A stretch of 64,000 bases of DNA from Escherichia coli (GTDB lineage: Bacteria > Pseudomonadota > Gammaproteobacteria > Enterobacterales > Enterobacteriaceae). A program made the position numbers and the translations under genes. The notes beneath the pieces were generated by a model, which had not been told where the DNA came from, did no database searches, and saw only the letters and a program-made list of their open reading frames with translations. Location of the stretch: NCBI RefSeq assembly GCF_022846255.1, contig NZ_AP025682.1; one strand, written 5' to 3'. Positions 1 to 59,920 of this stretch are shown here, in pieces (within the stretch, counting starts at the first letter, position 1; each line of letters starts with the position of its first letter).

Positions 1-811
1 CTACACCGCTGGCGAAGCGGACTGACTCCGCTAAATCCCCACCTGTGGCCAGCGCCACCGCCAAAGCGCCGTGAAAAACATCACCCGCTCCTGTGGTATC
101 TACCACATCAACTTTGAAGGCCGGTTGATGTTGACGCCCGCCATTTTCCAGCCAGTCGCAGCCTGCGCTGCCCTGGGTCACATAGACATGACCATTTGTG
201 AGCGTTTGTGCCTGTTTTAGGGCACTCGCCATCTCTTTCACGCCCGTTAAGCGCGCCAGACCCGGTTCTGAAAAAGCTGCATGATCGCTTAACGCCACCA
301 GTTCGCTGATATCCTGCGGCGTAATATCACCGTCCAGCACGGTCATTACGCCCGCCTGCCGCGCCAGAGTGAAGGCTTTTTTCGCGCCGTCGTGCCAGCG
401 TACATCTGCCAGCACCACGTCCCACTGAGAGAAATCAATTTCCTCCAACCACTCTGCATCAGGCAGTAGGTCTGGGCTGGGATAGTTAATGATGATGCGC
501 TCACCTTTGGCATCCACCATGATGGCGGATTGCGAAGATTTCGCCTGGTTATACCGTTTGGTGTAACGGGTGTTAACACCCCAGGATTCCAGCTCTGCCA
601 GCAGGCTGTTGCCCGTGTCGTCGTCACCGACGCGACCAATAAAATCGACCTGCGCACCTAGTCTGGCCGCCGCAACTGCTGCTGTAGCCGCTGGCCCGCC
701 GCCAACTTCCGTATAATTTTTCGCCACGTATTTACCGCTCTCCGTCGGCAATCCTTCCACGTAATAGATGCGATCCATCACGGTAATTCCTACACAAGCA
801 ACACGAATCAT
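1..811 (-). CDS. yihV: 6-deoxy-6-sulfofructose kinase (pfkB/ribokinase family); C-terminal ~28 aa lie beyond the window edge
   Basis: Minus-strand reading frame from ATG at 809-811 translates MIRVACVGITVMDRIYYVEGLPTESGKYVAK...TTGAGDVFHGALAVALA; no stop inside window; divergent from yihU. Not in the ORF track because it is unterminated. Confidence 0.85.
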   Translation of the reverse strand, partial: MIRVACVGITVMDRIYYVEGLPTESGKYVAKNYTEVGGGPAATAAVAAARLGAQVDFIGRVGDDDTGNSLLAELESWGVNTRYTKRYNQAKSSQSAIMVDAKGERIIINYPSPDLLPDAEWLEEIDFSQWDVVLADVRWHDGAKKAFTLARQAGVMTVLDGDITPQDISELVALSDHAAFSEPGLARLTGVKEMASALKQAQTLTNGHVYVTQGSAGCDWLENGGRQHQPAFKVDVVDTTGAGDVFHGALAVALATGGDLAESVRFASGV

Positions 812-978
812 GGTCATTCCTTAAGCATTTTGGGATGCGTTCATTTTAATTTCATCAATTGTTTAAAAAGTGACGGCTGTCAATTTTTTGACGATAAATT
901 ACAAATACGATCAAAAACAGACAAGCAAGGCATGTCATAAATGACAAAAAGTGACATCACTGTATTCAGGAGAGAGTT
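812..978. promoter_or_regulatory. Divergent yihV/yihU promoter region with repeated AAAAAGTGAC motifs and a TGACGGCTGTCA palindrome (candidate CsqR/YihW operator sites)
   Basis: AT-rich 167 bp intergenic region between divergent genes; two copies of AAAAAGTGAC (around 860 and 941) and palindrome at 864-875; RBS AGGAGAG upstream of yihU ATG. Confidence 0.4.
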
Positions 979-1875
979 ATGGCAGCAATCGCGTTTATCG
1001 GTTTAGGGCAAATGGGTTCGCCAATGGCGAGCAATTTATTGCAGCAAGGGCATCAACTTTGCGTCTTCGATGTGAATACCGAAGCCGTACAGCATCTGGT
1101 CGACAAAGGGGCGACTCCCGCTGCTAACCCAGCGCAGGCCGCTAAAGGTGCCGAATTTATCATTACCATGTTGCCGAATGGCGATCTGGTGCGTCACGTG
1201 TTGTTCGGTGAAAACGGTGTCTGTGAGAGCTTATCTTCCGATGCGCTGGTCATTGATATGTCGACCATCCACCCGCTGCAAACCGATAAATTGATTGCTG
1301 ATATGCAGGCCAGAGGCTTCAGCATGATGGATGTTCCGGTAGGCCGTACTTCCGCAAATGCCATTACCGGTACTCTGCTACTGCTGGCTGGCGGCACTGC
1401 TGAACAAGTTGAACGCGCCACGCCGATCCTGATGGCGATGGGCAGCGAGTTGATCAACGCGGGCGGTCCGGGCATGGGGATCCGCGTTAAGCTTATCAAC
1501 AACTACATGAGCATCGCGCTCAATGCGTTGTCGGCAGAAGCCGCCGTTTTGTGCGAAGCCCTCAATCTTCCCTTCGATGTTGCCGTCAAGGTAATGAGCG
1601 GTACTGCCGCCGGTAAAGGCCACTTCACCACTTCCTGGCCGAACAAAGTCCTCAGCGGAGATCTTTCTCCCGCCTTCATGATCGATCTTGCCCATAAGGA
1701 TCTTGGCATCGCCCTTGATGTCGCCAACCAGTTGCATGTGCCGATGCCACTGGGGGCCGCCTCACGGGAGGTTTATAGCCAGGCGCGCGCAGCGGGTCGC
1801 GGTCGCCAGGACTGGTCCGCCATTCTGGAGCAGGTCCGTGTCAGTGCCGGGATGACTGCCAAAGTAAAAATGTAA
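979..1875 (+). CDS. yihU: 3-sulfolactaldehyde reductase (beta-hydroxyacid dehydrogenase family)
   Basis: 298 aa ORF, N-terminal Rossmann motif [13 protein letters not shown]; matches remembered E. coli YihU. Confidence 0.9.
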
Positions 1876-1898
1876 CGACTGGATAAAGGAATAAATGA

Positions 1899-2777
1899 AT
1901 GAATAAGTACACCATCAACGACATTACGCGTGCATCGGGCGGTTTTGCCATGCTGGCGGTCGATCAGCGCGAAGCCATGCGCATGATGTTTGCCGCGGCT
2001 GGCGCACCCGCTCCAGTAGCCGATAGCGTTTTAACTGATTTCAAAGTTAACGCCGCGAAGACTCTTTCACCTTATGCATCGGCGATTCTGGTAGATCAAC
2101 AATTCTGCTACCGCCAGGTGGTTGAGCAAAACGCGATTGCCAAAAGTTGCGCCATGATTGTCGCCGCCGATGAGTTCATTCCTGGCAACGGTATTCCGGT
2201 AGATAGCGTGGTCATTGACCGCAAAATCAATCCGCTACAAATCAAACAAGACGGTGGCAAAGCCTTAAAACTGCTGGTGCTGTGGCGTAGTGATGAAGAT
2301 GCGCAGCAACGCCTGGATATGGTGAAAGAGTTTAACGAAATGTGCCACTCACACGGTCTGGTAAGCATCATTGAGCCAGTCGTCCGCCCACCGCGTCGTG
2401 GCGATAAATTCGATCGCGAACAAGCAATCATCGATGCAGCCAAAGAGCTGGGCGACAGTGGCGCTGATCTCTACAAAGTTGAAATGCCGCTTTACGGTAA
2501 AGGTCCGCAACAAGAGCTTCTCAGTGCTTCACAACGTCTGAATGACCATATCAATATGCCGTGGGTGATCCTCTCTTCCGGTGTCGACGAAAAACTGTTC
2601 CCGCGTGCCGTACGCGTGGCAATGACAGCGGGTGCATCGGGCTTCCTGGCTGGTCGTGCCGTCTGGGCATCGGTCGTCGGTTTACCAGACAACGAGCTGA
2701 TGCTGCGTGACGTTTGCGCACCGAAATTACAACAACTTGGCGATATCGTCGACGAAATGATGGCTAAACGCCGTTAA
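1899..2777 (+). CDS. yihT: 6-deoxy-6-sulfofructose-1-phosphate aldolase
   Basis: 292 aa ORF 23 bp downstream of yihU; class I aldolase-like; synteny with sulfoglycolysis cluster. Confidence 0.9.
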
Positions 2778-2792
2778 GATGGGGATACAAAA

Positions 2793-4034
2793 ATGAAATG
2801 GTTTAACACTTTAAGTCACAACCGTTGGCTGGAACAGGAAACCGATCGCATCTTTGATTTTGGTAAAAAATCCGTAGTACCGACCGGATTTGGCTGGTTA
2901 GGCAATAAAGGGCAAATCAAAGAAGAGATGGGCACCCATCTGTGGATCACAGCTCGTATGTTGCACGTTTATTCCGTTGCTGCGGCGATGGGCCGACCTG
3001 GCGCTTACTCGTTGGTTGATCACGGTATCAAAGCCATGAATGGCGCACTGCGCGATAAAAAATATGGCGGTTGGTATGCCTGCGTGAATGACGAGGGCGT
3101 GGTGGATGCCTCCAAACAGGGCTATCAACATTTCTTTGCTCTGCTGGGTGCTGCCAGCGCCGTCACTACCGGTCATCCGGAAGCGCGCAAGCTGCTCGAT
3201 TACACCATTGAAATTATCGAGAAATACTTCTGGAGCGAAGAAGAGCAGATGTGCCTGGAGTCCTGGGATGAAGCCTTCAGCAAAACCGAAGAGTATCGCG
3301 GCGGCAATGCCAATATGCACGCGGTGGAAGCCTTCCTGATTGTCTATGACGTCACCCATGACAAAAAATGGCTGGATCGCGCGATTCGCGTGGCTTCCGT
3401 GATTATCCACGACGTCGCCAGAAATAATCATTATCGCGTTAACGAACACTTCGATACCCAGTGGAATCCGCTGCCAGATTACAACAAAGATAACCCGGCG
3501 CACCGCTTCCGCGCGTTCGGAGGTACTCCGGGCCACTGGATCGAATGGGGCCGTTTAATGCTGCACATTCACGCGGCCCTGGAAGCCCGTTGCGAACAAC
3601 CGCCAGCATGGCTGCTAGAAGATGCCAAAGGTCTGTTTAACGCCACCGTGCGCGATGCCTGGGCACCCGATGGCGCGGACGGGATTGTTTATACCGTTGA
3701 CTGGGAAGGAAAACCGGTGGTCCGCGAACGTGTGCGTTGGCCTATCGTCGAAGCGATGGGTACGGCCTACGCGCTCTACACCGTCACTGGCGATCGCCAG
3801 TACGAAACTTGGTATCAGACATGGTGGGACTACTGCATCAAATACCTGATGGACTACGAAAATGGTTCATGGTGGCAGGAGCTGGATGCGGACAATAAGG
3901 TCACCACCAAAGTCTGGGACGGCAAACAGGATATTTATCATCTGCTGCATTGTCTGGTGATCCCACGTATCCCGTTAGCGCCAGGCCTGGCTCCGGCGGT
4001 TGCGGCGGGTCTGCTGGATATTAACGCGAAATAA
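2793..4034 (+). CDS. yihS: sulfoquinovose isomerase (AGE/N-acylglucosamine epimerase-like fold)
   Basis: 413 aa ORF; synteny yihT-yihS-yihR. Confidence 0.9.
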
Positions 4035-4100
4035 CTGACTAAAAAAACGACATATCAGGCTGCACGCCGGGTATGTCGTTATTCAATAAAGGTACCTCGT

Positions 4101-5003
4101 ATGCAAATCACCAACATGCATTGCAGTGGACAGACCGTTTCACTTGCCGCGGGGGATTATCACGCGACCATTGTGACCGTCGGTGCAGGTCTGGCTGAAT
4201 TAACCTTTCAGGGCTGTCATTTAGTTATTCCGCATAAACCCGAAGAGATGCCGCTGGCACATCTGGGCAAAGTCCTTATTCCGTGGCCAAACCGGATCGC
4301 CAACGGCTGTTATCGCTATCAGGGGCAGGAATATCAGTTACCCATTAATGAACATGGTTCAAAAGCCGCTATTCATGGGCTGCTCGCCTGGCGTGACTGG
4401 CAAATCAGCGAATTAAGCGCCACCAGCGTCACATTAACCGCCTTTCTGCCACCCAGTTACGGCTACCCGTTTATGCTGGCTTCGCAGGTGGTTTATTCGC
4501 TCAACGCCCGCACGGGTCTTTCCGTTGAGATCGCAAGCCAGAATATCGGCACTGTCGCAGCGCCTTACGGTGTGGGTATTCACCCTTATTTAACCTGCAA
4601 CTTAACATCTGTTGATGAATATCTGTTCCAGCTTCCGGCAAACCAAGTTTATGCCATCGATGAGCACGCTAATCCGACAACGCTTCACCACGTTGATGAG
4701 CTGGATTTAAATTTCACGCAGGCGAAAAAAATAGCCGCGACAAAAATCGACCACACCTTTAAAACCGCTAATGATTTGTGGGAAATGACTATTACCCATC
4801 CACAGCAGGCGCTTTCGGTGAGCCTCTGTTCCGATCAACCCTGGGTGCAGGTTTATAGCGGTGAAAAATTACAACGTCAGGGACTGGCAGTTGAACCAAT
4901 GAGTTGCCCGCCTAACGCCTTTAATTCAGGTATCGACTTATTATTACTGGAACCAGGGAAAACGCACCGCCTGTTTTTTAATATTCACGGGCAGCACAAT
5001 TAA
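4101..5003 (+). CDS. yihR: aldose 1-epimerase family protein (sulfoquinovose mutarotase)
   Basis: 300 aa ORF MQITNMHCSGQTVSLAAGDYHATIV...; RBS AAAGG upstream. Confidence 0.85.
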   Translation: MQITNMHCSGQTVSLAAGDYHATIVTVGAGLAELTFQGCHLVIPHKPEEMPLAHLGKVLIPWPNRIANGCYRYQGQEYQLPINEHGSKAAIHGLLAWRDWQISELSATSVTLTAFLPPSYGYPFMLASQVVYSLNARTGLSVEIASQNIGTVAAPYGVGIHPYLTCNLTSVDEYLFQLPANQVYAIDEHANPTTLHHVDELDLNFTQAKKIAATKIDHTFKTANDLWEMTITHPQQALSVSLCSDQPWVQVYSGEKLQRQGLAVEPMSCPPNAFNSGIDLLLLEPGKTHRLFFNIHGQHN

Positions 5004-5063
5004 TTTTATTAAGAAAAGAACGAGATCATTGTTTAGAGTTGTATTTACACAACAGGAAATATT

Positions 5064-5939
5064 ATGGACTTTTTTACGTTATTTTCACCGGATGGGGTCA
5101 TGCTGGAAACAAACGTGGTATGTATCGTTATCGCGTTAATGTTTCTTTATACCTTTGTGGGGATATGCGCGGGATTTGGCGGTGGTTTAACCACCATGCC
5201 GCTCGTCACGTTAATGCTCCCCGTAAAAATGGCAACTCCGCTCTCGGTGATTGTCGGCACCGCGACCGCCTTGTACGCCACCTGGCTGTCACGTAAAGAA
5301 ACGGATTGGCGATCGGCAATGGTACTGATTATTTTCTCGTTTCTGGGAATACCCGTCGGTTTATATGCGCTGTCGTATTTACCCGACCATTTTATGAAAG
5401 TGGGCTTAGGCGGATTCCTTATCCTGTACTCCTTTTACAGTATGTTTATTCCACGCCTGCCGATTTATGACCGTAGCTGGATCGCCGCACCTATCGGCGC
5501 CGTGGCAGGAGCGTTAGGGGCAGCATTTTCAACCAACGGACCGCCGATGGTTATCTACGGTATGCTGCGTAACTTAGGCCCGGCGGCATTTCGCGGCACT
5601 CTGAACGCTTTCTTCACCGCAAACAACATCGCGGTGATCGGCGGGCTGGCGACCAGCGGAATTTTGACTGTCTCTATCTTTAAACTGGTGCTGTTTTGTA
5701 TTCCCACCATGATCCTCGGTTCACTGGTTGGACAATATGTGCATAAACGCATTTCGGTCAAAGTGTTCCGTGTGATGGTCTTTTTATTGCTGATTGCCTC
5801 CGGTTCTATGTTGATAAAAGGCGCGCTGGGAATTCCCGCCGCTGCCGCACTTCTTCCTCCGTTTACCTTGTTAGTTATACTGCAACTGGCATTTGGTAAA
5901 AAAGTGGCGGCAATCCGTCGGGCGGAAGAAAGTAAATAA
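5064..5939 (+). CDS. TauE/SafE (TSUP) family integral membrane protein, putative sulfite/organosulfonate exporter
   Basis: 291 aa ORF, highly hydrophobic with ~8 predicted TM segments and two Gly-rich repeats (GFGGGLTTMP, GALGAAFSTNGPPM) typical of 4-toluene sulfonate uptake permease/TauE proteins; RBS AGGAAA 7 bp upstream of ATG; sits between yihR and yihQ. Confidence 0.7.
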   Translation: MDFFTLFSPDGVMLETNVVCIVIALMFLYTFVGICAGFGGGLTTMPLVTLMLPVKMATPLSVIVGTATALYATWLSRKETDWRSAMVLIIFSFLGIPVGLYALSYLPDHFMKVGLGGFLILYSFYSMFIPRLPIYDRSWIAAPIGAVAGALGAAFSTNGPPMVIYGMLRNLGPAAFRGTLNAFFTANNIAVIGGLATSGILTVSIFKLVLFCIPTMILGSLVGQYVHKRISVKVFRVMVFLLLIASGSMLIKGALGIPAAAALLPPFTLLVILQLAFGKKVAAIRRAEESK

Positions 5940-5945
5940 TCATTA

Positions 5946-5969
5946 TGCGGGTTTTAATTTATACCCGCA
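5946..5969 (+). terminator. Weak hairpin (7 bp stem TGCGGGT/ACCCGCA) just after the TauE-like gene
   Basis: Inverted repeat 5946-5952/5963-5969 read from sequence; no strong T-run follows, so may be an attenuator or mRNA-stability element rather than a terminator. Confidence 0.3.
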
Positions 5970-6044
5970 CACATTCTTTAATTAATGAAACCTGTAATAA
6001 CAGGATGGCATGAAATATTAGTTTTATATCTATGGAGATTATTT

Positions 6045-8081
6045 ATGGATACGCCACGCCCACAGCTATTAGATTTTCAATTTCATCAGAATAACGACAG
6101 TTTTACTCTACGTTTTCAAGACCGCCTTATTTTAATCCATAGCAAAGATAATCCTTGTTTATGGATTGGTTCAGGTATAGCGGATATCGATATGTTCCGC
6201 GGTAATTTCAGCATTAAAGATAAATTGCAGGAGAAAATTGCGCTTACCGACGCCATCGTCAGCCAGTCACCGGATGGCTGGTTAATCCATTTCAGCCGTG
6301 GTTCTGACATTAGCGCCACGCTGAATATCTCTGCCGACGATCATGGCCGTTTATTGCTGGAACTACAAAACGACAACCTTAACCACAACCGCATCTGGCT
6401 GCGCCTTGCCGCACAGCCGGAAGATCATATCTACGGCTGCGGCGAACAATTCTCCTACTTTGATCTGCGCAGCAAACCGTTCCCGCTGTGGACCAGTGAA
6501 CAAGGCGTTGGTCGCAACAAACAAACCTATGTCACCTGGCAGGCCGACTGCAAAGAGAATGCGGGAGGGGATTACTACTGGACCTTCTTTCCACAACCCA
6601 CGTTTGTTAGCACGCAGAAGTATTACTGCCATGTTGATAACAGTTGCTATATGAACTTCGACTTTAGCGCGCCGGAATACCATGAACTGGCGCTGTGGGA
6701 AGACAAAGCAACACTGCGTTTTGAATGTGCTGATACATACATCTCCCTGCTGGAAAAATTAACCGCGCTGCTGGGACGCCAGCCAGAACTGCCCGACTGG
6801 ATTTATGACGGAGTAACGCTCGGCATTCAGGGCGGCACTGAGGTGTGCCAGAAGAAACTGGACACCATGCGTAACGCGGGCGTGAAGGTCAACGGCATCT
6901 GGGCGCAGGATTGGTCCGGTATTCGTATGACCTCTTTTGGCAAACGCGTAATGTGGAACTGGAAGTGGAACAGCGAAAACTACCCGCAACTGGATTCACG
7001 TATCAAGCAGTGGAACAAAGAGGGCGTACAGTTCCTTGCCTATATCAACCCGTATGTTGCCAGCGATAAAGACCTCTGCGAAGAAGCGGCAAAGCGCGGC
7101 TATCTGGCAAAAGATGCCGCCGGCGGCGATTATCTGGTGGAGTTTGGCGAGTTCTACGGCGGCGTTGTCGATCTCACTAATCCGGAAGCCTACGCCTGGT
7201 TCAAGGAAGTGATCAAAAAGAACATGATTGAACTCGGCTGCGGCGGCTGGATGGCTGACTTCGGCGAGTATCTGCCCACCGACACTTACCTGCATAACGG
7301 CGTCAGCGCCGAAATTATGCATAACGCCTGGCCTGCGCTGTGGGCGAAATGTAACTACGAAGCCCTTGAAGAAACGGGCAAGCTCGGCGAGATCCTCTTC
7401 TTTATGCGCGCCGGTTCCACCGGTAGCCAAAAATATTCCACCATGATGTGGGCGGGCGACCAGAACGTTGACTGGAGTCTGGACGATGGACTGGCGTCTG
7501 TCGTCCCGGCGGCGCTGTCGCTGGCAATGACCGGACATGGCCTGCATCACAGTGATATTGGCGGTTACACCACCCTGTTTGAGATGAAGCGCAGCAAAGA
7601 GCTGCTGCTGCGCTGGTGCGATTTCAGCGCCTTCACGCCGATGATGCGCACCCATGAAGGTAACCGTCCAGGCGACAACTGGCAGTTTGATAGCGACGCG
7701 GAAACTATCGCCCATTTTGCCCGTATGACCACCGTCTTCACTACCCTGAAACCTTACCTGAAAGAGGCCGTCGCGCTGAATGCGAAGTCCGGCCTGCCGG
7801 TTATGCGCCCGCTGTTCCTGCATTACGAAGACGATGCACAGACCTACACCCTGAAATATCAGTACCTGTTAGGCCGCGACATTCTGGTCGCTCCGGTGCA
7901 TGAAGAAGGCCGTAGCGACTGGACGCTCTATCTGCCGGAGGATAACTGGGTCCACGCCTGGACGGGTGAAGCGTTCCGGGGCGGGGAAGTGACCGTTAAT
8001 GCGCCCATCGGTAAACCGCCGGTCTTTTATCGCGCCGATAGCGAATGGGCGGCACTGTTCGCGTCGTTAAAAAGCATCTAA
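6045..8081 (+). CDS. yihQ: sulfoquinovosidase (GH31 alpha-glucosidase family)
   Basis: ORF track starts at 5985; true start taken as ATG 6045 (MDTPRPQLLDFQFHQ...) with RBS GGAG upstream, giving 678 aa. Confidence 0.9.
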   Translation: MDTPRPQLLDFQFHQNNDSFTLRFQDRLILIHSKDNPCLWIGSGIADIDMFRGNFSIKDKLQEKIALTDAIVSQSPDGWLIHFSRGSDISATLNISADDHGRLLLELQNDNLNHNRIWLRLAAQPEDHIYGCGEQFSYFDLRSKPFPLWTSEQGVGRNKQTYVTWQADCKENAGGDYYWTFFPQPTFVSTQKYYCHVDNSCYMNFDFSAPEYHELALWEDKATLRFECADTYISLLEKLTALLGRQPELPDWIYDGVTLGIQGGTEVCQKKLDTMRNAGVKVNGIWAQDWSGIRMTSFGKRVMWNWKWNSENYPQLDSRIKQWNKEGVQFLAYINPYVASDKDLCEEAAKRGYLAKDAAGGDYLVEFGEFYGGVVDLTNPEAYAWFKEVIKKNMIELGCGGWMADFGEYLPTDTYLHNGVSAEIMHNAWPALWAKCNYEALEETGKLGEILFFMRAGSTGSQKYSTMMWAGDQNVDWSLDDGLASVVPAALSLAMTGHGLHHSDIGGYTTLFEMKRSKELLLRWCDFSAFTPMMRTHEGNRPGDNWQFDSDAETIAHFARMTTVFTTLKPYLKEAVALNAKSGLPVMRPLFLHYEDDAQTYTLKYQYLLGRDILVAPVHEEGRSDWTLYLPEDNWVHAWTGEAFRGGEVTVNAPIGKPPVFYRADSEWAALFASLKSI

Positions 8082-8126
8082 TCACATCCGCCCGTGGGGA
8101 AACTCACGGGCAAAGGGAGAACAACG

Positions 8127-9512
8127 ATGAGTCACATCACAACGGAAGATCCAGCAACTCTACGCCTGCCCTTTAAAGAGAAACTCTCTTACGGTATCGG
8201 CGATCTGGCCTCTAACATCCTACTGGATATCGGCACGCTTTATCTTTTGAAGTTTTATACCGATGTTCTGGGGCTGCCTGGCACCTATGGCGGCATTATC
8301 TTTTTGATTTCAAAATTCTTTACCGCCTTTACCGATATGGGTACCGGCATTATGTTGGATTCCCGACGCAAGATCGGTCCAAAAGGTAAGTTCCGTCCTT
8401 TTATTCTGTATGCGTCATTTCCGGTCACCCTGCTGGCGATCGCCAACTTTGTCGGCACACCGTTTGATGTCACCGGTAAAACGGTGATGGCCACCATCCT
8501 GTTTATGCTTTACGGACTGTTTTTCAGCATGATGAACTGCTCGTATGGCGCGATGGTCCCCGCTATTACTAAAAACCCCAACGAACGCGCCTCACTGGCG
8601 GCATGGCGTCAGGGTGGCGCTACATTGGGCCTGCTGCTTTGTACGGTGGGATTCGTGCCGGTTATGAATCTTATCGAGGGTAATCAGCAACTTGGCTATA
8701 TCTTCGCCGCCACGCTGTTTTCACTGTTCGGCCTGCTGTTTATGTGGATCTGCTATTCGGGCGTGAAAGAGCGTTATGTCGAAACCCAACCTACCAATCC
8801 GGCGCAAAAGCCTGGCTTGTTGCAATCTTTCCGCGCAATTGCGGGGAACCGCCCACTGTTCATTTTGTGCATTGCCAACCTCTGTACCTTAGGGGCGTTT
8901 AACGTCAAGCTCGCCATTCAGGTCTATTACACCCAGTACGTGCTTAACGATCCCATCCTGTTGTCATATATGGGATTTTTCAGCATGGGCTGTATTTTCA
9001 TCGGCGTGTTCCTGATGCCTGGTGCAGTCAGACGTTTTGGTAAGAAGAAGGTCTATATCGGCGGTCTGCTGATCTGGGTGCTGGGCGATCTGCTCAACTA
9101 TTTCTTCGGCGGCGGCTCGGTCAGCTTTGTGGCTTTCTCCTGCCTGGCGTTCTTTGGTTCGGCGTTTGTTAACAGCCTGAACTGGGCGCTGGTTTCTGAC
9201 ACCGTCGAGTACGGCGAGTGGCGCACCGGTGTGCGTTCAGAAGGTACGGTCTACACCGGTTTCACCTTCTTTCGCAAAGTATCTCAGGCGCTGGCAGGTT
9301 TCTTCCCAGGCTGGATGCTGACGCAAATTGGCTATGTGCCAAACGTCGCCCAGGCTGACCACACTATCGAAGGGTTGCGCCAACTGATCTTCATCTACCC
9401 AAGCGCACTGGCAGTAGTCACCATTGTGGCAATGGGTTGCTTCTACAGTCTGAACGAGAAGATGTACGTCCGCATTGTTGAAGAGATAGAAGCCCGTAAA
9501 CGCACGGCGTAA
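8127..9512 (+). CDS. yihP: GPH-family sugar:cation symporter (proposed DHPS exporter)
   Basis: Start at ATG 8127 (MSHITTEDPATLRL) after RBS AAGGGAGA; 12-TM melibiose-permease-like sequence; paralog of downstream yihO. Confidence 0.85.
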   Translation: MSHITTEDPATLRLPFKEKLSYGIGDLASNILLDIGTLYLLKFYTDVLGLPGTYGGIIFLISKFFTAFTDMGTGIMLDSRRKIGPKGKFRPFILYASFPVTLLAIANFVGTPFDVTGKTVMATILFMLYGLFFSMMNCSYGAMVPAITKNPNERASLAAWRQGGATLGLLLCTVGFVPVMNLIEGNQQLGYIFAATLFSLFGLLFMWICYSGVKERYVETQPTNPAQKPGLLQSFRAIAGNRPLFILCIANLCTLGAFNVKLAIQVYYTQYVLNDPILLSYMGFFSMGCIFIGVFLMPGAVRRFGKKKVYIGGLLIWVLGDLLNYFFGGGSVSFVAFSCLAFFGSAFVNSLNWALVSDTVEYGEWRTGVRSEGTVYTGFTFFRKVSQALAGFFPGWMLTQIGYVPNVAQADHTIEGLRQLIFIYPSALAVVTIVAMGCFYSLNEKMYVRIVEEIEARKRTA

Positions 9513-9554
9513 TTATAATAAACAACGCCCTGCGGGGCGTTATAAGGAGTGATT

Positions 9555-10958
9555 ATGTCTGACCATAATCCACTGACATTAAAACTGAATCTGCGGGAAA
9601 AAATCGCCTATGGTATGGGCGACGTCGGTTCGAATTTAATGCTTAGCATCGGCACTCTGTATCTCCTCAAATTTTATACCGATGAATTAGGGATGCCTGC
9701 TTACTATGGCGGGATTATCTTTCTGGTGGCGAAATTCTTTACCGCATTTACCGATATGCTCACCGGATTTTTACTCGACTCGCGGAAAAATATTGGACCT
9801 AAAGGAAAATTCAGGCCGTTTATTTTATACGCAGCGATTCCGGCGGCGTTAATTGCAACGCTCCAGTTTATCGCCACCACCTTTAGTTTGCCGGTTAAAA
9901 CGACGATTGCCACCGCACTGTTTATGATGTTTGGACTTTCATACAGTCTGATGAACTGCTCGTATGGCGCGATGATCCCGGCCATTACCAAAAACCCGAA
10001 TGAGCGCGCGCAACTCGCTGCTTACCGCCAGGGTGGTGCAACCATAGGGCTATTGATCTGTACCGTGGCGTTTATTCCTTTGCAGTCACTATTTTCTGAC
10101 TCCACCGTCGGCTACGCCTGCGCGGCACTGATGTTCTCCATTGGCGGCTTTATTTTTATGATGCTGTGCTACAGAGGTGTCAAAGAGCATTATGTGGACG
10201 CGACGCCAACCGGACATAAGGCCAGTATTCTCAAATCATTTTGCGCGATATTTCGTAATCCACCTTTGCTGGTATTGTGCATTGCTAACCTGTGTACCCT
10301 GGCGGCATTTAATATCAAACTGGCGATTCAGGTCTATTACACCCAGTATGTGCTGAATGATATTAACTTATTGTCGTGGATGGGATTCTTTAGTATGGGA
10401 TGCATTCTCATCGGCGTATTACTGGTGCCACTAACTGTAAAATGTTTTGGTAAAAAACAGGTTTATCTGGCTGGCATGGTGCTGTGGGCGGTGGGGGATA
10501 TCCTGAATTATTGCTGGGGCAGTAACTCATTCACTTTCGTCATGTTCTCTTGTGTCGCCTTTTTTGGCACGGCCTTTGTAAACAGCCTGAACTGGGCACT
10601 GGTACCAGATACCGTAGATTATGGTGAATGGAAAACAGGTATACGTGCCGAAGGTTCTGTTTATACCGGTTATACCTTCTTTCGTAAAATTTCAGCCGCA
10701 CTTGCTGGCTTCTTGCCCGGCATTATGCTGACGCAAATCGGTTATATTCCCAACATCGCGCAAAGCGATGCAACATTACAGGGTTTGCGTCAGCTCATTT
10801 TTATCTGGCCTTGTGCGCTGGCAATTATTGCTGCATTGACGATGGGGTTCTTTTACACGCTCAATGAGAAACGGTTTGCACTGATTATTGAGGAAATTAA
10901 CCAACGCAAAAATAAAGAAATCGAGACAGAAGAAAAAACGGCTTCCGTAACGTTATAA
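9555..10958 (+). CDS. yihO: GPH-family sulfoquinovose importer
   Basis: Start ATG 9555 (MSDHNPLTLKL) after RBS AAGGAGTG; 467 aa; strong similarity to yihP product. Confidence 0.85.
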   Translation: MSDHNPLTLKLNLREKIAYGMGDVGSNLMLSIGTLYLLKFYTDELGMPAYYGGIIFLVAKFFTAFTDMLTGFLLDSRKNIGPKGKFRPFILYAAIPAALIATLQFIATTFSLPVKTTIATALFMMFGLSYSLMNCSYGAMIPAITKNPNERAQLAAYRQGGATIGLLICTVAFIPLQSLFSDSTVGYACAALMFSIGGFIFMMLCYRGVKEHYVDATPTGHKASILKSFCAIFRNPPLLVLCIANLCTLAAFNIKLAIQVYYTQYVLNDINLLSWMGFFSMGCILIGVLLVPLTVKCFGKKQVYLAGMVLWAVGDILNYCWGSNSFTFVMFSCVAFFGTAFVNSLNWALVPDTVDYGEWKTGIRAEGSVYTGYTFFRKISAALAGFLPGIMLTQIGYIPNIAQSDATLQGLRQLIFIWPCALAIIAALTMGFFYTLNEKRFALIIEEINQRKNKEIETEEKTASVTL

Positions 10959-11025
10959 ATGTCAATAGCCGCTATTTCCATCCTGATGGGTGGCGGCCTC
11001 CCTACGTTTAAAAAATGGACTTATT

Positions 11026-11718
11026 ATGAAAAATATTAATGCAATAATTTTATTATCTTCTCTGACCTCTGCCTCGGTATTCGCTGGCGCATACGTCGAA
11101 AACAGGGAAGCATATAATCTCGCCTCCGATCAGGGCGAGGTTATGCTACGTGTGGGTTATAACTTCGATATGGGCGCGGGTATTATGCTAACCAATACCT
11201 ACACCTTTCAGCGAGAAGATTAACTCAAACATGGCTATAATGAAATTGAAGGTTGGTATCCTTTATTTAAACCTACCGATAAATTAACCATCCAGCCCGG
11301 TGGCTTAATTAATGACAAGAGTATCGGTTCGGGTGGTGCTGTTTATCTGGATGTTAACTACAAATTTACTCCGTGGTTTAACCTGACGGTGCGTAATCGC
11401 TATAACCATAATAATTACAGCTCTACAGATTTGAACGGCGAATTGGATAATAACGACACCTATGAAGTTGGCACCTACTGGAACTTTAAAATAACAGAAA
11501 AATTTTCCTATACATTTGAACCACATTACTTCATGCGAGTGAATGACTTTAATAGTAGCAACGGGAAAGATCATCATTGGGAAATCACTAACACCTTCCG
11601 TTACCGTATTAATGAACACTGGCTTCCTTATTTCGAATTGCGCTGGTTAGACCGCAACGTCGAGCCGTACCACCGCGAGCAAAACCAGATTCGTATCGGA
11701 ACGAAGTATTTCTTCTGA
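11026..11718 (+). pseudogene. ompL: outer membrane porin OmpL interrupted by an in-frame TAA stop at 11221-11223
   Basis: Signal peptide MKNINAIILLSSLTSASVFA then porin sequence; reading frame has TAA after ...TYTFQRED and continues in the same frame (LKHGYNEIEGWYPLFKPTDKLTIQPGG...YFF) to the normal end at 11718. Confidence 0.75.
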
Positions 11719-11728
11719 TGTAAAAATT

Positions 11729-11764
11729 CCTGATGCGATGCTGGCGCATCTTATCAGGTCTACA
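11729..11764. repeat. REP (repetitive extragenic palindromic) element
   Basis: TCCTGATGCGATGCTGGCGCATCTTATCAGGTCTAC resembles canonical E. coli REP consensus. Confidence 0.5.
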
Positions 11765-11770
11765 AAAGCC

Positions 11771-11802
11771 AAAAAAAACCTGCCATCGCTGGCAGGTTTT
11801 TT
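11771..11802. terminator. Bidirectional rho-independent terminator between convergent ompL and typA
   Basis: Hairpin CCTGCCA-TCGC-TGGCAGG flanked by A-run on the left and T-run on the right. Confidence 0.6.
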
Positions 11803-11819
11803 ATGACTAAAAAACGAAA

Positions 11820-13643
11820 TTAATCGTCTTTCGGTGCGCGGTTGGCGCGACGACGATCGTTTTCCGTCAGGTGACGTTTACGAATACGGATAGAGGTCGG
11901 AGTCACTTCTACCAGTTCGTCATCATCGATGAACTCCAGAGCTTGTTCCAGAGTCATGCGGATAGGCGGAACCAGAACAACGGCTTCGTCAGTACCGGAA
12001 GCACGCATGTTGGTCAGTTTCTTACCGGTCAGGCAGTTTACAGTCAGGTCGTTAGAGCGGCTGTGAATACCGATAATCTGACCTTCGTAAACTTCAGCAC
12101 CGTGACCGAGGAACAGCTTACCGCGATCCTGCAGACCGAACAGCGCGAACGCTACCGCTTTACCCTGACCGTTAGAGATCAGTACGCCGTTCTGACGCTG
12201 GCCCACTTCACCCGGACGTACGTCGTCGTAGTGGCTGAAGGTGGAGTACAGCAGACCAGTACCGGAAGTCATGGTCATGAACTCAGAACGGAAGCCAATC
12301 AGACCACGGCTTGGGATCACGTAGTCGAGACGTACGCGGCCTTTACCGTCTGGATTCATGTTTTTCAGGTCGCCTTTACGTTCGCCCAGCGCCTGCATTA
12401 CAGAACCCTGATGCTGTTCTTCAACGTCCAGAGTCACGTTTTCATACGGCTCTTGTTTACGACCGTCGATTTCACGGAAGATAACTTTCGGACGGGATAC
12501 CGCCAGTTCGAAACCTTCACGACGCATGTTTTCGATAAGAACAGACAGGTGCAGTTCGCCACGACCAGAAACGCGGAACGCATCGGCGTCTTCGGTTTCT
12601 TCTACGCGCAGCGCAACGTTGTGTACCAGTTCTTTGTTCAGACGATCCAGGATCTGACGAGACGTTACGAACTTACCTTCTTTACCGCAGAACGGCGAGG
12701 TGTTAACGCAGAAGAACATAGAAACGGTCGGCTCATCAACGGAGAGTGCCGGCAGCGCTTCAACGTTTTGCGTGTCGCAAACGGTGTCAGAAATGTTCAG
12801 TTCGCCAAGACCCGTGATCGCCACGATATCGCCAGCTTCCGCCAGATCGGTTTCGATACGTTCCAGACCGAGGTGGCCCAGCACTTTACCGACTTTCGCG
12901 TTGCGGGTTTTGCCTTCGCTATCGATGATAGTAACCTGCTGGTTCGGCTTCACTTTACCGCGCTTGATGCGGCCAATGCCGATAACGCCAACATAGCTGT
13001 TGTAATCGAGCTGAGAAATCTGCATCTGGAACGGACCGTCAAGGTCAACGTCCGGCGCAGGAACGTGGTCAACAATCGCCTGGTACAGCGGGGTCATGTC
13101 TTCCGCCATATCTTCGTGGTCCAGACCCGCGATACCGTTCAGCGCAGAAGCGTAAACGATCGGGAAGTCCAGCTGCTCGTCGGTCGCGTCGAGGTTAACG
13201 AACAGATCGAATACCTGATCCACAACCCAATCAGGACGCGCGCCAGGGCGGTCAACTTTGTTGATAACAACAATCGGCTTCAGGCCGTAAGCAAACGCTT
13301 TTTTGGTTACGAAGCGCGTTTGCGGCATCGGGCCGTCAAATGCGTCAACCACCAGCAGCACTGAGTCTACCATGGACATTACACGTTCAACTTCACCACC
13401 GAAGTCGGCGTGCCCCGGGGTATCAACGATGTTGATACGGTAATCATTCCATTTGATAGCGGTGTTTTTCGCGAGGATGGTAATCCCACGCTCTTTCTCC
13501 AAATCGTTGGAGTCCATCACGCGCTCTTGGGTTTCGGCACGAGAGTCGAACGTACCGGATTGTTGGAGCAGCTTGTCTACCAGGGTGGTTTTACCATGGT
13601 CTACGTGCGCGATGATGGCGATATTACGCAATTTTTCGATCAC
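11820..13643 (-). CDS. typA: ribosome-dependent translational GTPase BipA/TypA
   Basis: 607 aa; N-terminal G-domain [18 protein letters not shown]; EF-G-like. Confidence 0.95.
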
Positions 13644-13794
13644 AACTTTGCCTCAGGCATTAGAAATAGCGCGTTATTGTACACGGATTAATCGCACTAC
13701 AAAACAGGATCACAAACATCCTCCGCAAACAAGTATTGCAGAGTCCCTTTGTGATCGCTTTCACGGAGCATAAAAAGGGTTATCCAAAGGTCAT

Positions 13795-13844
13795 TGCACC
13801 AATATGGTGCTTAATGTTCCCATTGAAGCACTATATTGGTGCAA
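13795..13844 (+). promoter_or_regulatory. NtrC (NRI) enhancer sites upstream of glnA
   Basis: Two dyads TGCACCAATATGGTGCT (13795-13811) and GCACTATATTGGTGCAA (13828-13844) matching NtrC consensus TGCACC-N5-GGTGCA. Confidence 0.7.
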
Positions 13845-13915
13845 CATTCACATCATGGTGCAGCCCTTTTGCACGATGTTAAGCATGATAACGCCTTTTA
13901 GGGGCAATTTAAAAG

Positions 13916-13932
13916 TTGGCACAGATTTCGCT
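13916..13932 (+). promoter_or_regulatory. sigma-54 promoter glnAp2
   Basis: TTGGCACAGATTTCGCT: GG-N10-GC spacing of sigma-54 -24/-12 elements, ~85 bp upstream of glnA ATG. Confidence 0.75.
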
Positions 13933-14015
13933 TTATCTTTTTTACGGCGACACGGCCCATTTAATTGCAGATTTCGTTACCACGACGACAATGACCAATC
14001 CAGGAGAGTTAAAGT

Positions 14016-15425
14016 ATGTCCGCTGAACACGTACTGACGATGCTGAACGAGCACGAAGTGAAGTTTGTTGATTTGCGCTTCACCGATACCAAAGGTAAAG
14101 AACAGCACGTCACTATCCCTGCTCATCAGGTGAATGCCGAATTCTTCGAAGAAGGCAAAATGTTTGACGGCTCCTCGATTGGCGGCTGGAAAGGCATTAA
14201 CGAATCCGATATGGTGCTGATGCCAGACGCATCCACCGCAGTGATTGACCCGTTCTTCGCCGATTCTACCCTGATTATCCGTTGCGACATCCTTGAACCT
14301 GGCACCCTGCAAGGCTATGACCGTGACCCGCGCTCTATTGCGAAGCGCGCTGAAGATTACCTGCGTTCTACTGGCATTGCCGACACCGTACTGTTCGGGC
14401 CAGAACCTGAATTCTTCCTGTTCGATGACATCCGTTTCGGATCGTCTATCTCCGGTTCCCACGTTGCTATCGACGATATCGAAGGTGCATGGAACTCCTC
14501 CACCCAATATGAAGGTGGTAACAAAGGTCACCGTCCGGCAGTGAAAGGCGGTTACTTCCCGGTTCCGCCGGTAGACTCAGCTCAGGATATCCGTTCTGAA
14601 ATGTGCCTGGTGATGGAACAGATGGGTCTGGTGGTTGAAGCTCATCACCACGAAGTCGCTACCGCAGGTCAGAACGAAGTGGCTACCCGCTTCAATACCA
14701 TGACCAAAAAAGCTGACGAAATTCAGATCTACAAATATGTCGTGCACAACGTGGCGCACCGTTTCGGTAAGACCGCGACCTTTATGCCAAAACCGATGTT
14801 CGGTGATAACGGTTCCGGTATGCACTGCCACATGTCGCTGTCTAAAAACGGCGTCAACCTGTTTGCTGGCGACAAATACGCAGGTCTGTCTGAGCAGGCA
14901 CTGTACTACATTGGCGGCGTAATCAAACACGCTAAAGCGATTAACGCCCTGGCAAACCCGACCACCAACTCTTACAAGCGTCTGGTCCCGGGCTACGAAG
15001 CACCGGTAATGCTGGCTTACTCTGCGCGTAACCGTTCTGCGTCTATCCGTATTCCGGTGGTTTCTTCTCCGAAAGCACGTCGTATCGAAGTACGTTTCCC
15101 GGACCCGGCGGCTAACCCGTACCTGTGCTTTGCTGCCCTGCTGATGGCCGGTCTTGATGGCATCAAGAACAAGATCCATCCGGGCGAAGCCATGGACAAA
15201 AACCTGTATGACCTGCCGCCAGAAGAAGCGAAAGAGATCCCACAGGTTGCAGGCTCTCTGGAAGAAGCACTGAACGAACTGGATCTGGACCGCGAGTTCC
15301 TGAAAGCTGGTGGCGTGTTCACGGATGAAGCGATCGATGCGTACATCGCTCTGCGTCGCGAAGAAGATGACCGCGTGCGTATGACTCCGCATCCGGTAGA
15401 GTTTGAGCTGTACTACAGCGTCTAA
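14016..15425 (+). CDS. glnA: glutamine synthetase
   Basis: 469 aa [31 protein letters not shown]...; adenylylation-site region NPYL present. Confidence 0.97.
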
Positions 15426-15485
15426 TAGTTGAAGTTGTACTACCCGGCGCAACAACGCCGGGATTTAGTTGCCGTGGAAACTTTC

Positions 15486-15512
15486 AGCCCATCTCTGCAT
15501 GGGCTTTTTTCT
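15486..15512 (+). terminator. glnA rho-independent terminator
   Basis: Hairpin AGCCCAT-CTCTGC-ATGGGCT followed by TTTTTT. Confidence 0.6.
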
Positions 15513-15555
15513 CCGTCAATTCTCTGATGCTTCGCGCTTTTTATCCGTAAAAAGC

Positions 15556-15577
15556 TATAATGCACTAAAATGGTGCA
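15556..15577 (+). promoter_or_regulatory. glnL promoter -10 (TATAAT) overlapped by an NtrC operator (TGCACTAAAATGGTGCA)
   Basis: TATAAT at 15556-15561 immediately followed by NtrC-consensus dyad 15561-15577. Confidence 0.6.
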
Positions 15578-15598
15578 ACCTGTTCAGGAGACTGCTTT

Positions 15599-16648: not shown

Positions 16649-16659
16649 AGGTGACGTTT

Positions 16660-18069: not shown

Positions 18070-18180
18070 TTCACGGCTTGTGTGTAAAGATTGATTATTG
18101 AGCGCAAATTGCTGGTATTTTGCGCTTTACTGTTCCGATAAGTTCAGTATGATCTTGCCCGGAAAACGGGGAGAGTCATT

Positions 18181-18291
18181 ATGCTGGAATCAATAATTAA
18201 TCTGGTATCGAGTGGCGCAGTTGACAGCCACACACCGCAAACTGCTGTTGCTGCCGTGCTGTGTGCCGCGATGATAGGGCTGTTTAGCTGA
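18181..18291 (+). CDS. yshB: small protein YshB (36 aa)
   Basis: ATG 18181 preceded by RBS GGGGAGAG; MLESIINLVSSGAVDSHTPQTAVAAVLCAAMIGLFS; below ORF-track size cut-off. Confidence 0.55.
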   Translation: MLESIINLVSSGAVDSHTPQTAVAAVLCAAMIGLFS

Positions 18292-18302
18292 AGCTCGTTG
18301 TT

Positions 18303-18456
<154 letters not shown>

Positions 18457-59913: not shown

Positions 59914-59920
59914 CTGATAT

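What the first reader, a model, noticed from the sequence alone, without database searches (positions are those of the whole stretch)
5064..5939. TauE/SafE-family membrane protein gene embedded in the sulfoglycolysis cluster between yihR and yihQ
As I recall K-12, yihR and yihQ are adjacent, but here a 291 aa TSUP/TauE-like permease gene with its own RBS sits between them in the same orientation. TauE/SafE proteins export sulfite or sulfoacetate, and related exporters occur in sulfoquinovose-degrading Pseudomonas clusters that release sulfolactate. The E. coli sulfo-EMP pathway is thought to excrete DHPS via YihP, so an additional sulfonate or sulfite exporter suggests a different or additional end product in this strain.
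Basis: partly seen in the sequence, partly recalled or inferred. Interest (0 to 1): 0.6.

Follow-up and report, generated by a model that had tools for sequence, protein, structure and literature searches.

The report
Sulfonate permease gene in sulfoquinovose cluster
A real, well-conserved membrane-permease gene sits between yihR and yihQ in this E. coli's sulfoquinovose-degradation cluster; it is an old, widespread part of such clusters that K-12 has lost, and most likely exports the waste product DHPS rather than signalling a new end product.

Summary
Window 5064-5939 (+) encodes a 291-aa TauE/SafE (TSUP, PF01925) permease between yihR and yihQ. K-12 has an unrelated 198-bp spacer there.

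The gene is not a peculiarity of this strain. It is in 1295 of 5426 complete E. coli genomes, including O157:H7, and at the same position in Salmonella enterica and E. whittamii. K-12 therefore looks like the loss state.

It belongs to a tight clade (at least 76% identity from E. coli to Vibrio; the next relatives are at most 38%) under strong purifying selection. All 17 genomic contexts examined lie inside a sulfoquinovose cluster. These are either sulfo-EMP (yih) clusters or a sulfo-ED variant carrying a reductase instead of a sulfolactaldehyde dehydrogenase.

Published work shows that a Vibrio cluster described with that gene content excretes DHPS, as K-12 does. This strain's YihU is intact, and no desulfonating enzyme or sulfolactaldehyde dehydrogenase is nearby.

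The best reading is a dedicated C3-sulfonate (DHPS) exporter, inferred rather than shown.

TauE-type exporters are already proposed for other sulfoglycolysis pathways, so this is a new member of a known kind. It is of modest interest, because it is a testable candidate for the unproven DHPS export step.

The parts
1..811 (-). yihV (sulfofructose kinase), 3' part; the window starts inside the gene
   Evidence: Annotation of the identical record, locus L001 4916-5812 mapped to the window.
979..1875 (+). yihU, sulfolactaldehyde 3-reductase (makes DHPS)
   Evidence: NCBIfam NF012005 at 601.7 bits against a cut-off of 348. 290/298 aa identical to K-12, with K171, N174, S178 and R123 unchanged.
1899..2777 (+). 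yihT, sulfofructose-1-phosphate aldolase
   Evidence: RefSeq annotation; DeoC/LacD-type aldolase hit.
2793..4034 (+). yihS, sulfoquinovose isomerase
   Evidence: RefSeq annotation.
4101..5003 (+). yihR, sulfoquinovose mutarotase (aldose-1-epimerase)
   Evidence: NCBIfam NF011719 at 618 bits.
5004..5063 (+). yihR-tauE spacer carrying the ribosome-binding site (AGGA). No terminator-like site was found, so co-transcription with yihR is plausible.
   Evidence: Sequence. The scan found no terminator here. The spacer is identical in O55:H7.
5064..5939 (+). tauE-like TSUP permease, 291 aa; the gene in the finding and the proposed DHPS exporter
   Evidence: Pfam PF01925 E=7.9e-35. AlphaFold2 model with pLDDT 92.8 showing two repeats of four TM helices plus a half-helix, and an extra C-terminal helix. 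dN/dS 0.02-0.06. 17 of 17 contexts are sulfoglycolysis clusters.
5947..5968 (+). GC-rich hairpin (GCGGGT / ACCCGC stem) just after the tauE stop, with no clear T-run. It may be a weak terminator or an mRNA 3' stabiliser.
   Evidence: RNA fold -11.2 kcal/mol, z=-4.5 against shuffles. Salmonella has a different hairpin in the equivalent place, but its fold is not significant (z -1.3).
5991..6004 (.). Palindrome CCTGTAATAACAGG, about 40 bp upstream of the yihQ ATG. It is conserved in the tauE-less K-12 spacer, and this is where homology between the two haplotypes resumes. It may be a regulatory site for yihQ.
   Evidence: Alignment with K-12.
6045..8081 (+). yihQ, sulfoquinovosidase
   Evidence: NCBIfam NF007746 at 1239.8 bits, with the match beginning at residue 21 of the longer ORF that starts at 5985. 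RefSeq places the start at 6045.
8127..9512 (+). yihP, GPH-family transporter (assumed in the literature to export DHPS)
   Evidence: TIGR00792 GPH symporter. It is 64% identical to YihO.
9555..10958 (+). yihO, GPH-family transporter (assumed sulfoquinovose importer)
   Evidence: TIGR00792.
11026..11718 (+). ompL, KdgM-family porin
   Evidence: RefSeq annotation.

Best explanation
The gene encodes an inner-membrane permease of the TSUP (TauE/SafE) family. It is an ancestral, dedicated component of sulfoquinovose-catabolic clusters in Enterobacterales and Vibrionaceae.

Its most likely job is to export the C3-sulfonate waste product 2,3-dihydroxypropane-1-sulfonate (DHPS). YihU-type reductases make DHPS from sulfolactaldehyde.

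What is shown:
- family membership;
- the position of the gene inside the cluster;
- its conservation and purifying selection;
- its exclusive association with two biochemically different sulfoglycolysis clusters that share only their substrate (sulfoquinovose) and their product (DHPS);
- its absence from K-12.

What is inferred: the substrate (DHPS), the direction (efflux), and expression together with yihR under sulfoquinovose/CsqR control.

The K-12-type cassette is a secondary loss. In that lineage DHPS must leave by another route, either YihP as the literature assumes or an unlinked carrier.
For: 1. TauE Pfam match E=7.9e-35. A confident AlphaFold2 model (pLDDT 92.8) shows the inverted-repeat transporter architecture, and the conserved GFGGG...MP and TNGPP motifs lie in the two short central half-helices.

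2. The clade is isolated and tight. In 1.84 billion representatives clustered at 50% there is one full-length cluster (80% identity), then nothing above 38%. E. coli to Vibrio is 76-87% identical at the protein level, with dN/dS 0.02-0.06.

3. Seventeen contexts were examined, and all are sulfoglycolysis clusters.
- Order yihR-tauE-yihQ: E. coli, E. whittamii, Salmonella.
- Order yihQ-tauE-yihP: Enterobacteriaceae RIT691, Klebsiella quasipneumoniae, Atlantibacter.
- Last gene of a sulfo-ED cluster (LacI regulator, SSF symporter, IlvD/Edd dehydratase, HpcH aldolase, mutarotase, SGL lactonase, PF03446 dehydrogenase, SDR): Leminorella, Edwardsiella, Vibrio owensii, Hafnia, Kluyvera, Morganella, Pantoea, Mixta, Enterobacter kobei, Raoultella.

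4. The SDR of the ED-type cluster matches PDB 9gwu 'Sulfoquinovose 1-dehydrogenase' at 323 bits, E=1.6e-95.

5. ED-type clusters contain only two inner-membrane transporters, an SSF sugar symporter and TauE. The Klebsiella EMP cluster has one GPH transporter plus TauE. One importer plus TauE is therefore the minimal set.

6. In Enterobacter kobei the ED and EMP clusters lie in tandem and share a single tauE and a single mutarotase.

7. All 17 clusters carry a PF03446 reductase, and none carries a PF00171 aldehyde dehydrogenase or a desulfonation gene. V. splendidus, with a cluster described as having this gene content, converts sulfoquinovose to DHPS near-stoichiometrically without sulfolactate (PMC13372026).

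8. YihO and YihP are 64% identical GPH sugar-symporter paralogues. The DHPS-export role of YihP is an assignment, not a demonstration (PMC8873060 preprint text; PMC12890257).
Against: - No transport experiment exists for any member of this clade, and none can be done here.
- K-12 lacks the gene yet is described as growing on sulfoquinovose and exporting DHPS (the reviews cite Denger 2014). TauE is therefore not essential in E. coli, and a deletion could be phenotypically silent.
- About half of complete E. coli genomes (2649) carry the uniform tauE-less junction, so loss is tolerated.
- TSUP members have been proposed both as importers (TsaS; my own knowledge) and as exporters, so direction cannot be read from the family.
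- The ED-type PF03446 enzyme is only about 30% identical to YihU and does not keep YihU's N174/S178/R123 pocket. For the enterobacterial ED clusters, DHPS as product rests on context plus the Vibrio experiment.
- I could not verify that the Vibrio strain studied experimentally carries the tauE orthologue. The paper and its held supplements do not mention it.
Confidence: 0.58

Rival explanations
1. One reading: the permease exports a different or additional end product, sulfolactate or sulfite, so tauE-positive strains end the pathway differently from K-12.
For: Family annotation as 'sulfite exporter TauE/SafE'. TauE-type permeases are proposed as sulfolactate exporters in Arthrobacter, Bacillus and Cupriavidus. 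E. coli has unlinked aldehyde dehydrogenases that could oxidise some sulfolactaldehyde (my own knowledge, not tested).
Against: No aldehyde dehydrogenase, sulfolyase or other desulfonating gene occurs in any of the 17 clusters. YihU is intact in this strain. A Vibrio cluster described with the ED-type gene content yields DHPS and no sulfolactate. The clade is at most 38% identical to every other TSUP protein, so it is not an orthologue of characterised TauE or SafE. The gene is ancestral and widespread rather than a strain novelty.
Confidence: 0.1
2. The permease is an importer of sulfoquinovose, a sulfoquinovosyl glycoside or another sulfonate, by analogy with the TSUP founding member TsaS (4-toluenesulfonate uptake).
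For: The substrate, like the product, is common to both cluster types. TSUP includes proposed uptake systems (one search names the family as '4-toluene sulfonate uptake permease').
Against: Every cluster already carries a member of a classical sugar:cation symporter family (GPH YihO/YihP, or SSF), and often a porin as well. No other candidate for product efflux is encoded in the ED-type clusters. K-12 takes up sulfoquinovose without it.
Confidence: 0.12
3. The permease has a supporting role other than moving the pathway's sulfonates. It could be a generic anion or counter-ion carrier, could detoxify a side product such as sulfolactaldehyde or sulforhamnose, or could be nearly redundant.
For: Loss is tolerated in about half of E. 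coli genomes. TSUP substrates are poorly defined.
Against: Very strong purifying selection. Strict linkage to sulfoglycolysis clusters in three different gene orders and across two pathways, including clusters next to mobile elements, argues for a pathway-specific function.
Confidence: 0.15

Closest known systems
TauE of Cupriavidus necator H16 and SafE of Neptuniibacter caesariensis (founding TauE/SafE members, Pfam PF01925, TSUP family)
   Same: Same Pfam family (E=7.9e-35). Same predicted repeat architecture of two sets of four TM helices. Encoded inside an organosulfonate catabolic cluster and presumed to expel an anionic sulfur end product.
   Different: Those proteins are linked to desulfonating pathways and are proposed to export sulfite or sulfoacetate; no such enzyme is in these clusters. 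The sequences are remote: nothing outside the clade exceeds 38% identity. This clade is about 50 residues longer, with an extra C-terminal helix (residues 259-290) and a conserved N-terminal MDFFxLFxPDG.
TauE-type permeases proposed as product exporters in other sulfoglycolysis clusters (Arthrobacter sulfo-EMP for sulfolactate; Bacillus sulfo-TAL; SqwE of the sulfo-TK pathway for isethionate)
   Same: Same concept: a TSUP permease encoded with sulfoquinovose catabolic genes and assigned to efflux of the sulfonate by-product.
   Different: Those clusters end in sulfolactate or isethionate. This clade tracks clusters that carry a sulfolactaldehyde reductase and so produce DHPS. None of these exporters, this one included, has been tested biochemically.
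YihP of E. coli K-12 (GPH/MFS family), the literature's assumed DHPS exporter
   Same: Encoded in the same cluster. It is the competing candidate for the same step.
   Different: Unrelated fold and family. YihP is a 64%-identical paralogue of the presumed sugar importer YihO and belongs to a sugar:cation symporter family. ED-type clusters that excrete DHPS have no YihP homologue but do have this TauE.
'Long' and 'short' yih cassettes of E. coli (Kaznadzey et al. 2025, PMC12608037)
   Same: Same locus and the same theme: the yih cassette is structurally polymorphic and recombinogenic in E. coli.
   Different: That paper distinguishes only ompL-yihOPQRSTUVW from yihTUVW and never mentions the tauE gene. 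The long cassette itself has two forms, with tauE (about 1290 genomes) and without it (about 2650 genomes).

Membership tests
TSUP / TauE-SafE family (Pfam PF01925) | Significant match to the family profile HMM over most of its length | tested here: met
   PF01925 E=7.9e-35, 121 bits, model positions 2-235 of 237.
TSUP / TauE-SafE family (Pfam PF01925) | Polytopic membrane protein built from two homologous four-TM repeats | tested here: met
   The AlphaFold2 model (pLDDT 92.8, pTM 0.88) shows TM, half-helix, TM, TM, TM twice (residues 16-128 and 138-255), plus an extra helix at 259-290. This is a prediction only: there is no solved TSUP structure to compare with.
TSUP / TauE-SafE family (Pfam PF01925) | Transport of sulfite or an organosulfonate | not testable with these tools
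   Requires transport assays.
TauE sensu stricto (sulfite exporter of desulfonating pathways) | Orthology (close sequence relationship) to characterised TauE | tested here: not met
   Exhaustive HMMER search of 1.84 billion representatives: apart from the clade's own cluster (80%), full-length relatives are at most 38% identical and score at most 143 bits against 513. There is no NCBIfam equivalog. C. necator TauE itself was not compared directly.
TauE sensu stricto (sulfite exporter of desulfonating pathways) | Genomic linkage to a sulfite-releasing enzyme (Xsc, SuyAB, monooxygenase) | tested here: not met
   None in the window's cluster or in the 16 other contexts.
Sulfoglycolysis gene cluster component (sulfo-EMP / sulfo-ED) | Encoded within the cluster, on the same strand, with conserved linkage across taxa | tested here: met
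   17 of 17 contexts, in three gene orders and two pathways. The nearest out-clade relatives sit in unrelated contexts.
Sulfoglycolysis gene cluster component (sulfo-EMP / sulfo-ED) | Induction by sulfoquinovose / control by CsqR | not tested
   No expression data could be found. The published RNA-seq used K-12 and Nissle, which the authors describe as carrying the ompL-yihOPQRSTUVW and yihTUVW cassettes, with no tauE listed. The Vibrio proteomics text and held supplements do not list it.
DHPS exporter (functional class) | Co-occurrence with a sulfolactaldehyde reductase and with demonstrated DHPS excretion | tested here: inconclusive
   A PF03446 reductase is present in all 17 clusters and an aldehyde dehydrogenase in none. 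DHPS excretion has been shown for K-12, which lacks tauE, and for a Vibrio whose cluster is described with the same gene content. The ED-type reductase lacks YihU's sulfonate-pocket residues. No direct link between the permease and DHPS has been made.

The most novel reading that the evidence does not exclude
This isolated TSUP clade is the true, dedicated DHPS efflux carrier of sulfoglycolysis in Enterobacterales and Vibrionaceae. It is shared as a module by the sulfo-EMP pathway and the DHPS-forming sulfo-ED pathway. E. coli K-12, the organism in which sulfoglycolysis was defined, would then be a natural deletion mutant of this step. The textbook assignment of YihP as the DHPS exporter would be wrong or secondary, with YihO and YihP both importing sulfoquinovose or its glycosides. 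The clade would be the first TSUP protein with a defined physiological organosulfonate substrate.
Probability: 0.45. Interest if true: 0.5.

Novelty: new member of a known kind. Interest (0 to 1): 0.38.

Why it matters
[quoted passage not shown] The DHPS that enterobacteria excrete feeds sulfite- and H2S-producing gut and marine bacteria. The export step of the model sulfo-EMP pathway has never been demonstrated; it is assigned to YihP by default.

A permease conserved at 76-87% identity in both DHPS-forming pathways, but missing from the laboratory strain used to define the pathway, is a concrete and easily testable candidate for that step. It also shows that the 'long' yih cassette of E. coli exists in two forms, a point missed by a recent survey.

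The finding does not indicate new chemistry or a new kind of system.

Tried and rejected
1. I looked for a tauE remnant in the K-12 yihR-yihQ spacer with MAFFT and with blastn at word size 7. Only the last 57 bp or so upstream of yihQ are homologous, and there is no trace of the gene. The deletion end-points therefore cannot be reconstructed. 'Loss in K-12' rests on parsimony across Salmonella, E. whittamii and Atlantibacter.

2. I tested whether tauE presence tracks a deep cassette haplotype. It does not do so simply. Window, O55:H7 and K-12 cassettes are mosaics at 90-98% identity per gene, and tauE and yihLMN vary independently.

3. NCBIfam gave no family, even at E=10.

4. A PDB sequence search gave no hit. 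A Foldseek PDB search with the model gave nothing at E<=1e-3; the best match was BacA/UppP at TM 0.44. No structural homologue of known mechanism was found.

5. I tested whether the ED-type PF03446 enzyme is a YihU orthologue. It shares about 30% identity and keeps K171, but the N174/S178/R123 pocket is not conserved. Its role as sulfolactaldehyde reductase rests on context and the Vibrio experiment.

6. Literature searches for any description of tauE in E. coli or Salmonella yih clusters found none. Denger 2014 and Felux 2015 are not in the library, so an earlier mention there cannot be excluded.

7. One literature search was badly posed and returned nothing useful.

8. The supplements of PMC13372026 were searched for the Vibrio tauE locus tag and gave nothing.

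9. The genome-contig scan with a single protein returned only 5 loci because it uses exact peptide patterns. Contexts were completed with exact-protein look-ups.

10. Pseudogene or chance ORF was rejected on dN/dS, the Pfam score and the conserved N-terminus.

Full report
**Observation.** The window is E. coli chromosome, 100% identical over the queried 4.2 kb to strain FHI_NMBU_03, NZ_CP019455.1. An ATG-initiated ORF of 291 codons lies at 5064-5939 on the + strand. An AGGA sits 8-11 nt upstream of the ATG. The ORF begins 60 bp after the yihR stop codon and ends 105 bp before the yihQ start (6045).

The product matches Pfam TauE (PF01925) over nearly the whole model, E=7.9e-35. RefSeq annotates the same CDS as 'sulfite exporter TauE/SafE family protein'. 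Family searches and the RefSeq record identify the neighbours as yihU, yihT, yihS and yihR upstream and yihQ, yihP, yihO and ompL downstream. In K-12 (strain TG1), yihR and yihQ are separated by 198 bp with no gene between them.

**How common is it, and which state is ancestral?** The gene alone is found in 1295 of 5426 complete E. coli genomes. It is always chromosomal, with one copy per genome as the median, and it occurs in O157:H7 and O55:H7. The K-12-type junction is found in 2649 genomes, and in 2369 of them it is at least 99% identical. Most of the remainder lack both forms; the short yihTUVW cassette described by Kaznadzey et al. (PMC12608037) would be one such state.

The K-12 spacer holds no recognisable remnant of the gene. 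Homology with the window resumes only about 57 bp upstream of yihQ, at a conserved palindrome CCTGTAATAACAGG. Salmonella enterica has the orthologue (87% amino-acid identity) at the same place, yihR-tauE-yihQ. So does E. whittamii. Atlantibacter has it in the same chromosomal locus, but after yihQ. Parsimony therefore makes presence ancestral and the K-12 form a loss. The end-points of that loss are no longer readable.

The yih cassette is a mosaic in E. coli, with 90-98% nucleotide identity per gene among window, O55:H7 and K-12. Presence of tauE varies independently of the neighbouring yihLMN genes.

**What kind of protein is it?** Against orthologues, dN/dS is 0.02-0.06 with saturated dS, so the gene is functional.

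An exhaustive HMMER search of 1.84 billion representatives clustered at 50% found one full-length cluster for this protein (80% identity, 513 bits). After that, nothing exceeded 38% identity or 143 bits. The protein therefore belongs to a tight, isolated clade within the TSUP family. It is not an orthologue of any characterised TauE or SafE. NCBIfam has no model for it, and no solved structure matches by sequence or by fold.

An AlphaFold2 model built on 78 sequences is confident (pLDDT 92.8, pTM 0.88). It shows two repeats, each consisting of a TM helix, a short half-helix and three more TM helices. The two short half-helices carry the conserved GFGGG...MP and TNGPP motifs. A clade-specific extra helix spans residues 259-290.

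**Genomic contexts.** I examined 17 taxa, and every copy lies in a sulfoquinovose cluster. There are three arrangements.
- Order yihR-tauE-yihQ: Escherichia and Salmonella.
- Order yihQ-tauE-yihP: Enterobacteriaceae RIT691, Klebsiella quasipneumoniae and Atlantibacter.
- Last gene of a different cluster made of a LacI regulator, SSF symporter, IlvD/Edd dehydratase, HpcH/HpaI aldolase, mutarotase, SGL lactonase, PF03446 dehydrogenase and SDR: Leminorella, Edwardsiella, Vibrio owensii, Hafnia, Kluyvera, Morganella, Pantoea, Mixta, Enterobacter kobei and Raoultella.

The SDR of the third cluster type matches the solved 'Sulfoquinovose 1-dehydrogenase' (PDB 9gwu) at 323 bits, against 198 bits for the next hit. 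These are therefore sulfo-Entner-Doudoroff clusters. They carry a beta-hydroxyacid dehydrogenase where Pseudomonas has a sulfolactaldehyde dehydrogenase.

TauE proteins from ED-type clusters are as similar to the E. coli protein (76-84%) as those from other enterobacterial EMP clusters outside Escherichia and Salmonella (81-82%). The nearest relatives outside the clade sit in unrelated neighbourhoods. In Enterobacter kobei the ED and EMP clusters are adjacent, and the EMP part lacks both yihR and tauE, as if one copy of each serves both.

**What it most likely does.** The two pathways share no intermediates after sulfoquinovose except sulfolactaldehyde and its reduction product.
- All 17 clusters have a PF03446 reductase. 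None has an aldehyde dehydrogenase or a sulfite-releasing enzyme.
- The window's YihU is 290/298 identical to K-12's. Lys171 and the published sulfonate-pocket residues Asn174, Ser178 and Arg123 are unchanged (PMC8006165).
- A 2026 study showed that Vibrio splendidus JLJ25 uses a sulfo-ED cluster with the same enzyme content, including an SLA-reductase homologue about 31% similar to YihU. It converts sulfoquinovose to DHPS near-stoichiometrically, with no sulfolactate (PMC13372026).
- ED-type clusters encode just two inner-membrane transporters, an SSF sugar symporter and TauE. The Klebsiella EMP cluster has one GPH transporter plus TauE.
- YihO and YihP are 64%-identical members of a sugar:cation symporter family. 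The DHPS-export role of YihP is an assumption in the literature.

Taken together, the most economical assignment is that this permease expels DHPS. The assignment is inferred, not shown.

**Points against, or limits.**
- K-12 lacks the gene but still excretes DHPS, and about half of E. coli genomes have lost it. It is therefore dispensable, at least where YihP or other carriers exist.
- TSUP proteins have been proposed both as importers and as exporters.
- The ED-type reductase does not conserve YihU's pocket: His, Val/Gln and Lys replace Asn174, Ser178 and Arg123.
- I could not confirm that strain JLJ25 itself carries the orthologue.

The suggestion of a different or additional end product (sulfolactate or sulfite) in this strain is not supported. 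The gene is old and common, the reductase is intact, and nothing in the cluster would produce sulfolactate or sulfite. Clusters of the same design also make DHPS. The comparison with the Pseudomonas exporters holds only at the level of the superfamily.

**Novelty.** TauE-type permeases have already been proposed as product exporters in the Arthrobacter, Bacillus and sulfo-TK clusters, and the gene is annotated in RefSeq. I found no paper that notes its presence in E. coli or Salmonella yih clusters, its absence from K-12, or its sharing between EMP-type and ED-type clusters. The dedicated survey of E. coli yih cassettes does not mention it, nor do the reviews. Denger 2014 and Felux 2015 could not be read here.

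I rate this a new member of a known kind and of modest interest. It gives a concrete candidate for the undemonstrated DHPS export step. It also shows that the model strain lacks a conserved cluster component.

**Local features.** No terminator-like site lies between yihR and tauE. A stable hairpin (5947-5968, -11.2 kcal/mol, z -4.5) follows the tauE stop but has no clear T-run. Salmonella has a different hairpin there, but its fold does not stand out from shuffled sequence (z -1.3). Whether tauE is co-transcribed with yihR, and whether yihQ has its own promoter around the conserved palindrome, remains to be tested.

Noticed in passing
window 11719-11819 (ompL-typA spacer): This strain has no yihL-yihM-yihN genes between ompL and typA. 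K-12 and O55:H7 have all three there, and Salmonella L008 also lacks them. The presence of yihLMN varies independently of tauE.
   Followed up: partly
window 54551-59990: A roughly 5.4-kb island lies between udp and rmuC. It encodes a TctABC-type tripartite tricarboxylate transporter, a 2-dehydro-3-deoxygalactonokinase, a KDPGal-type aldolase and an IclR regulator. At least 80% of a 5.8-kb query spanning it is matched in 1452 of 5426 complete E. coli genomes; the other genomes listed match only the udp flank. Its substrate is unknown.
   Followed up: partly
window 62117-64000: Genes for FdrA (acyl-CoA synthetase-like), a DUF2877 protein and a cysteine-hydrolase-family protein lie next to ysgA at the window end. 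I did not compare this with K-12.
   Followed up: no
window 5991-6004: A perfect palindrome CCTGTAATAACAGG lies about 40 bp upstream of the yihQ start. It is conserved in the tauE-positive and K-12 haplotypes but not obviously in Salmonella, and it is where homology between the haplotypes resumes. It may be an operator or promoter element for yihQ.
   Followed up: partly
L013 (Kluyvera ascorbata) 1-11768; L024 (Raoultella) 1-11850: In these genera a DHPS-type sulfo-ED cluster lies immediately next to typA, the gene that flanks the yih sulfo-EMP cluster on its ompL side in this window. The two alternative sulfoquinovose pathways may therefore replace each other at one locus.
   Followed up: partly
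L018 (Enterobacter kobei) 95-18876: The sulfo-ED and sulfo-EMP clusters lie in tandem, separated by T6SS Hcp and Tlde1 genes. The EMP part lacks yihR and tauE, which are present only in the ED part. One organism thus has two sulfoglycolysis routes and shared accessory genes.
   Followed up: no
L015 (Morganella) 14682-17489; L016 (Pantoea) 11027-18882: The sulfo-ED plus tauE cluster lies beside a transposase and integrase in Morganella, and beside a type IV secretion/conjugation module in Pantoea. This suggests the cluster moves horizontally.
   Followed up: no
A2 alignment, YihU positions 123, 174, 178: The PF03446 enzyme of the ED-type clusters keeps the catalytic Lys171. It replaces YihU's sulfonate-pocket residues Arg123, Asn174 and Ser178 with Lys, His and Val/Gln. 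If it is the sulfolactaldehyde reductase, it binds the sulfonate differently.
   Followed up: partly
window 20715-20881: RefSeq marks a small frameshifted hypothetical pseudogene between yihA and yihI.
   Followed up: no
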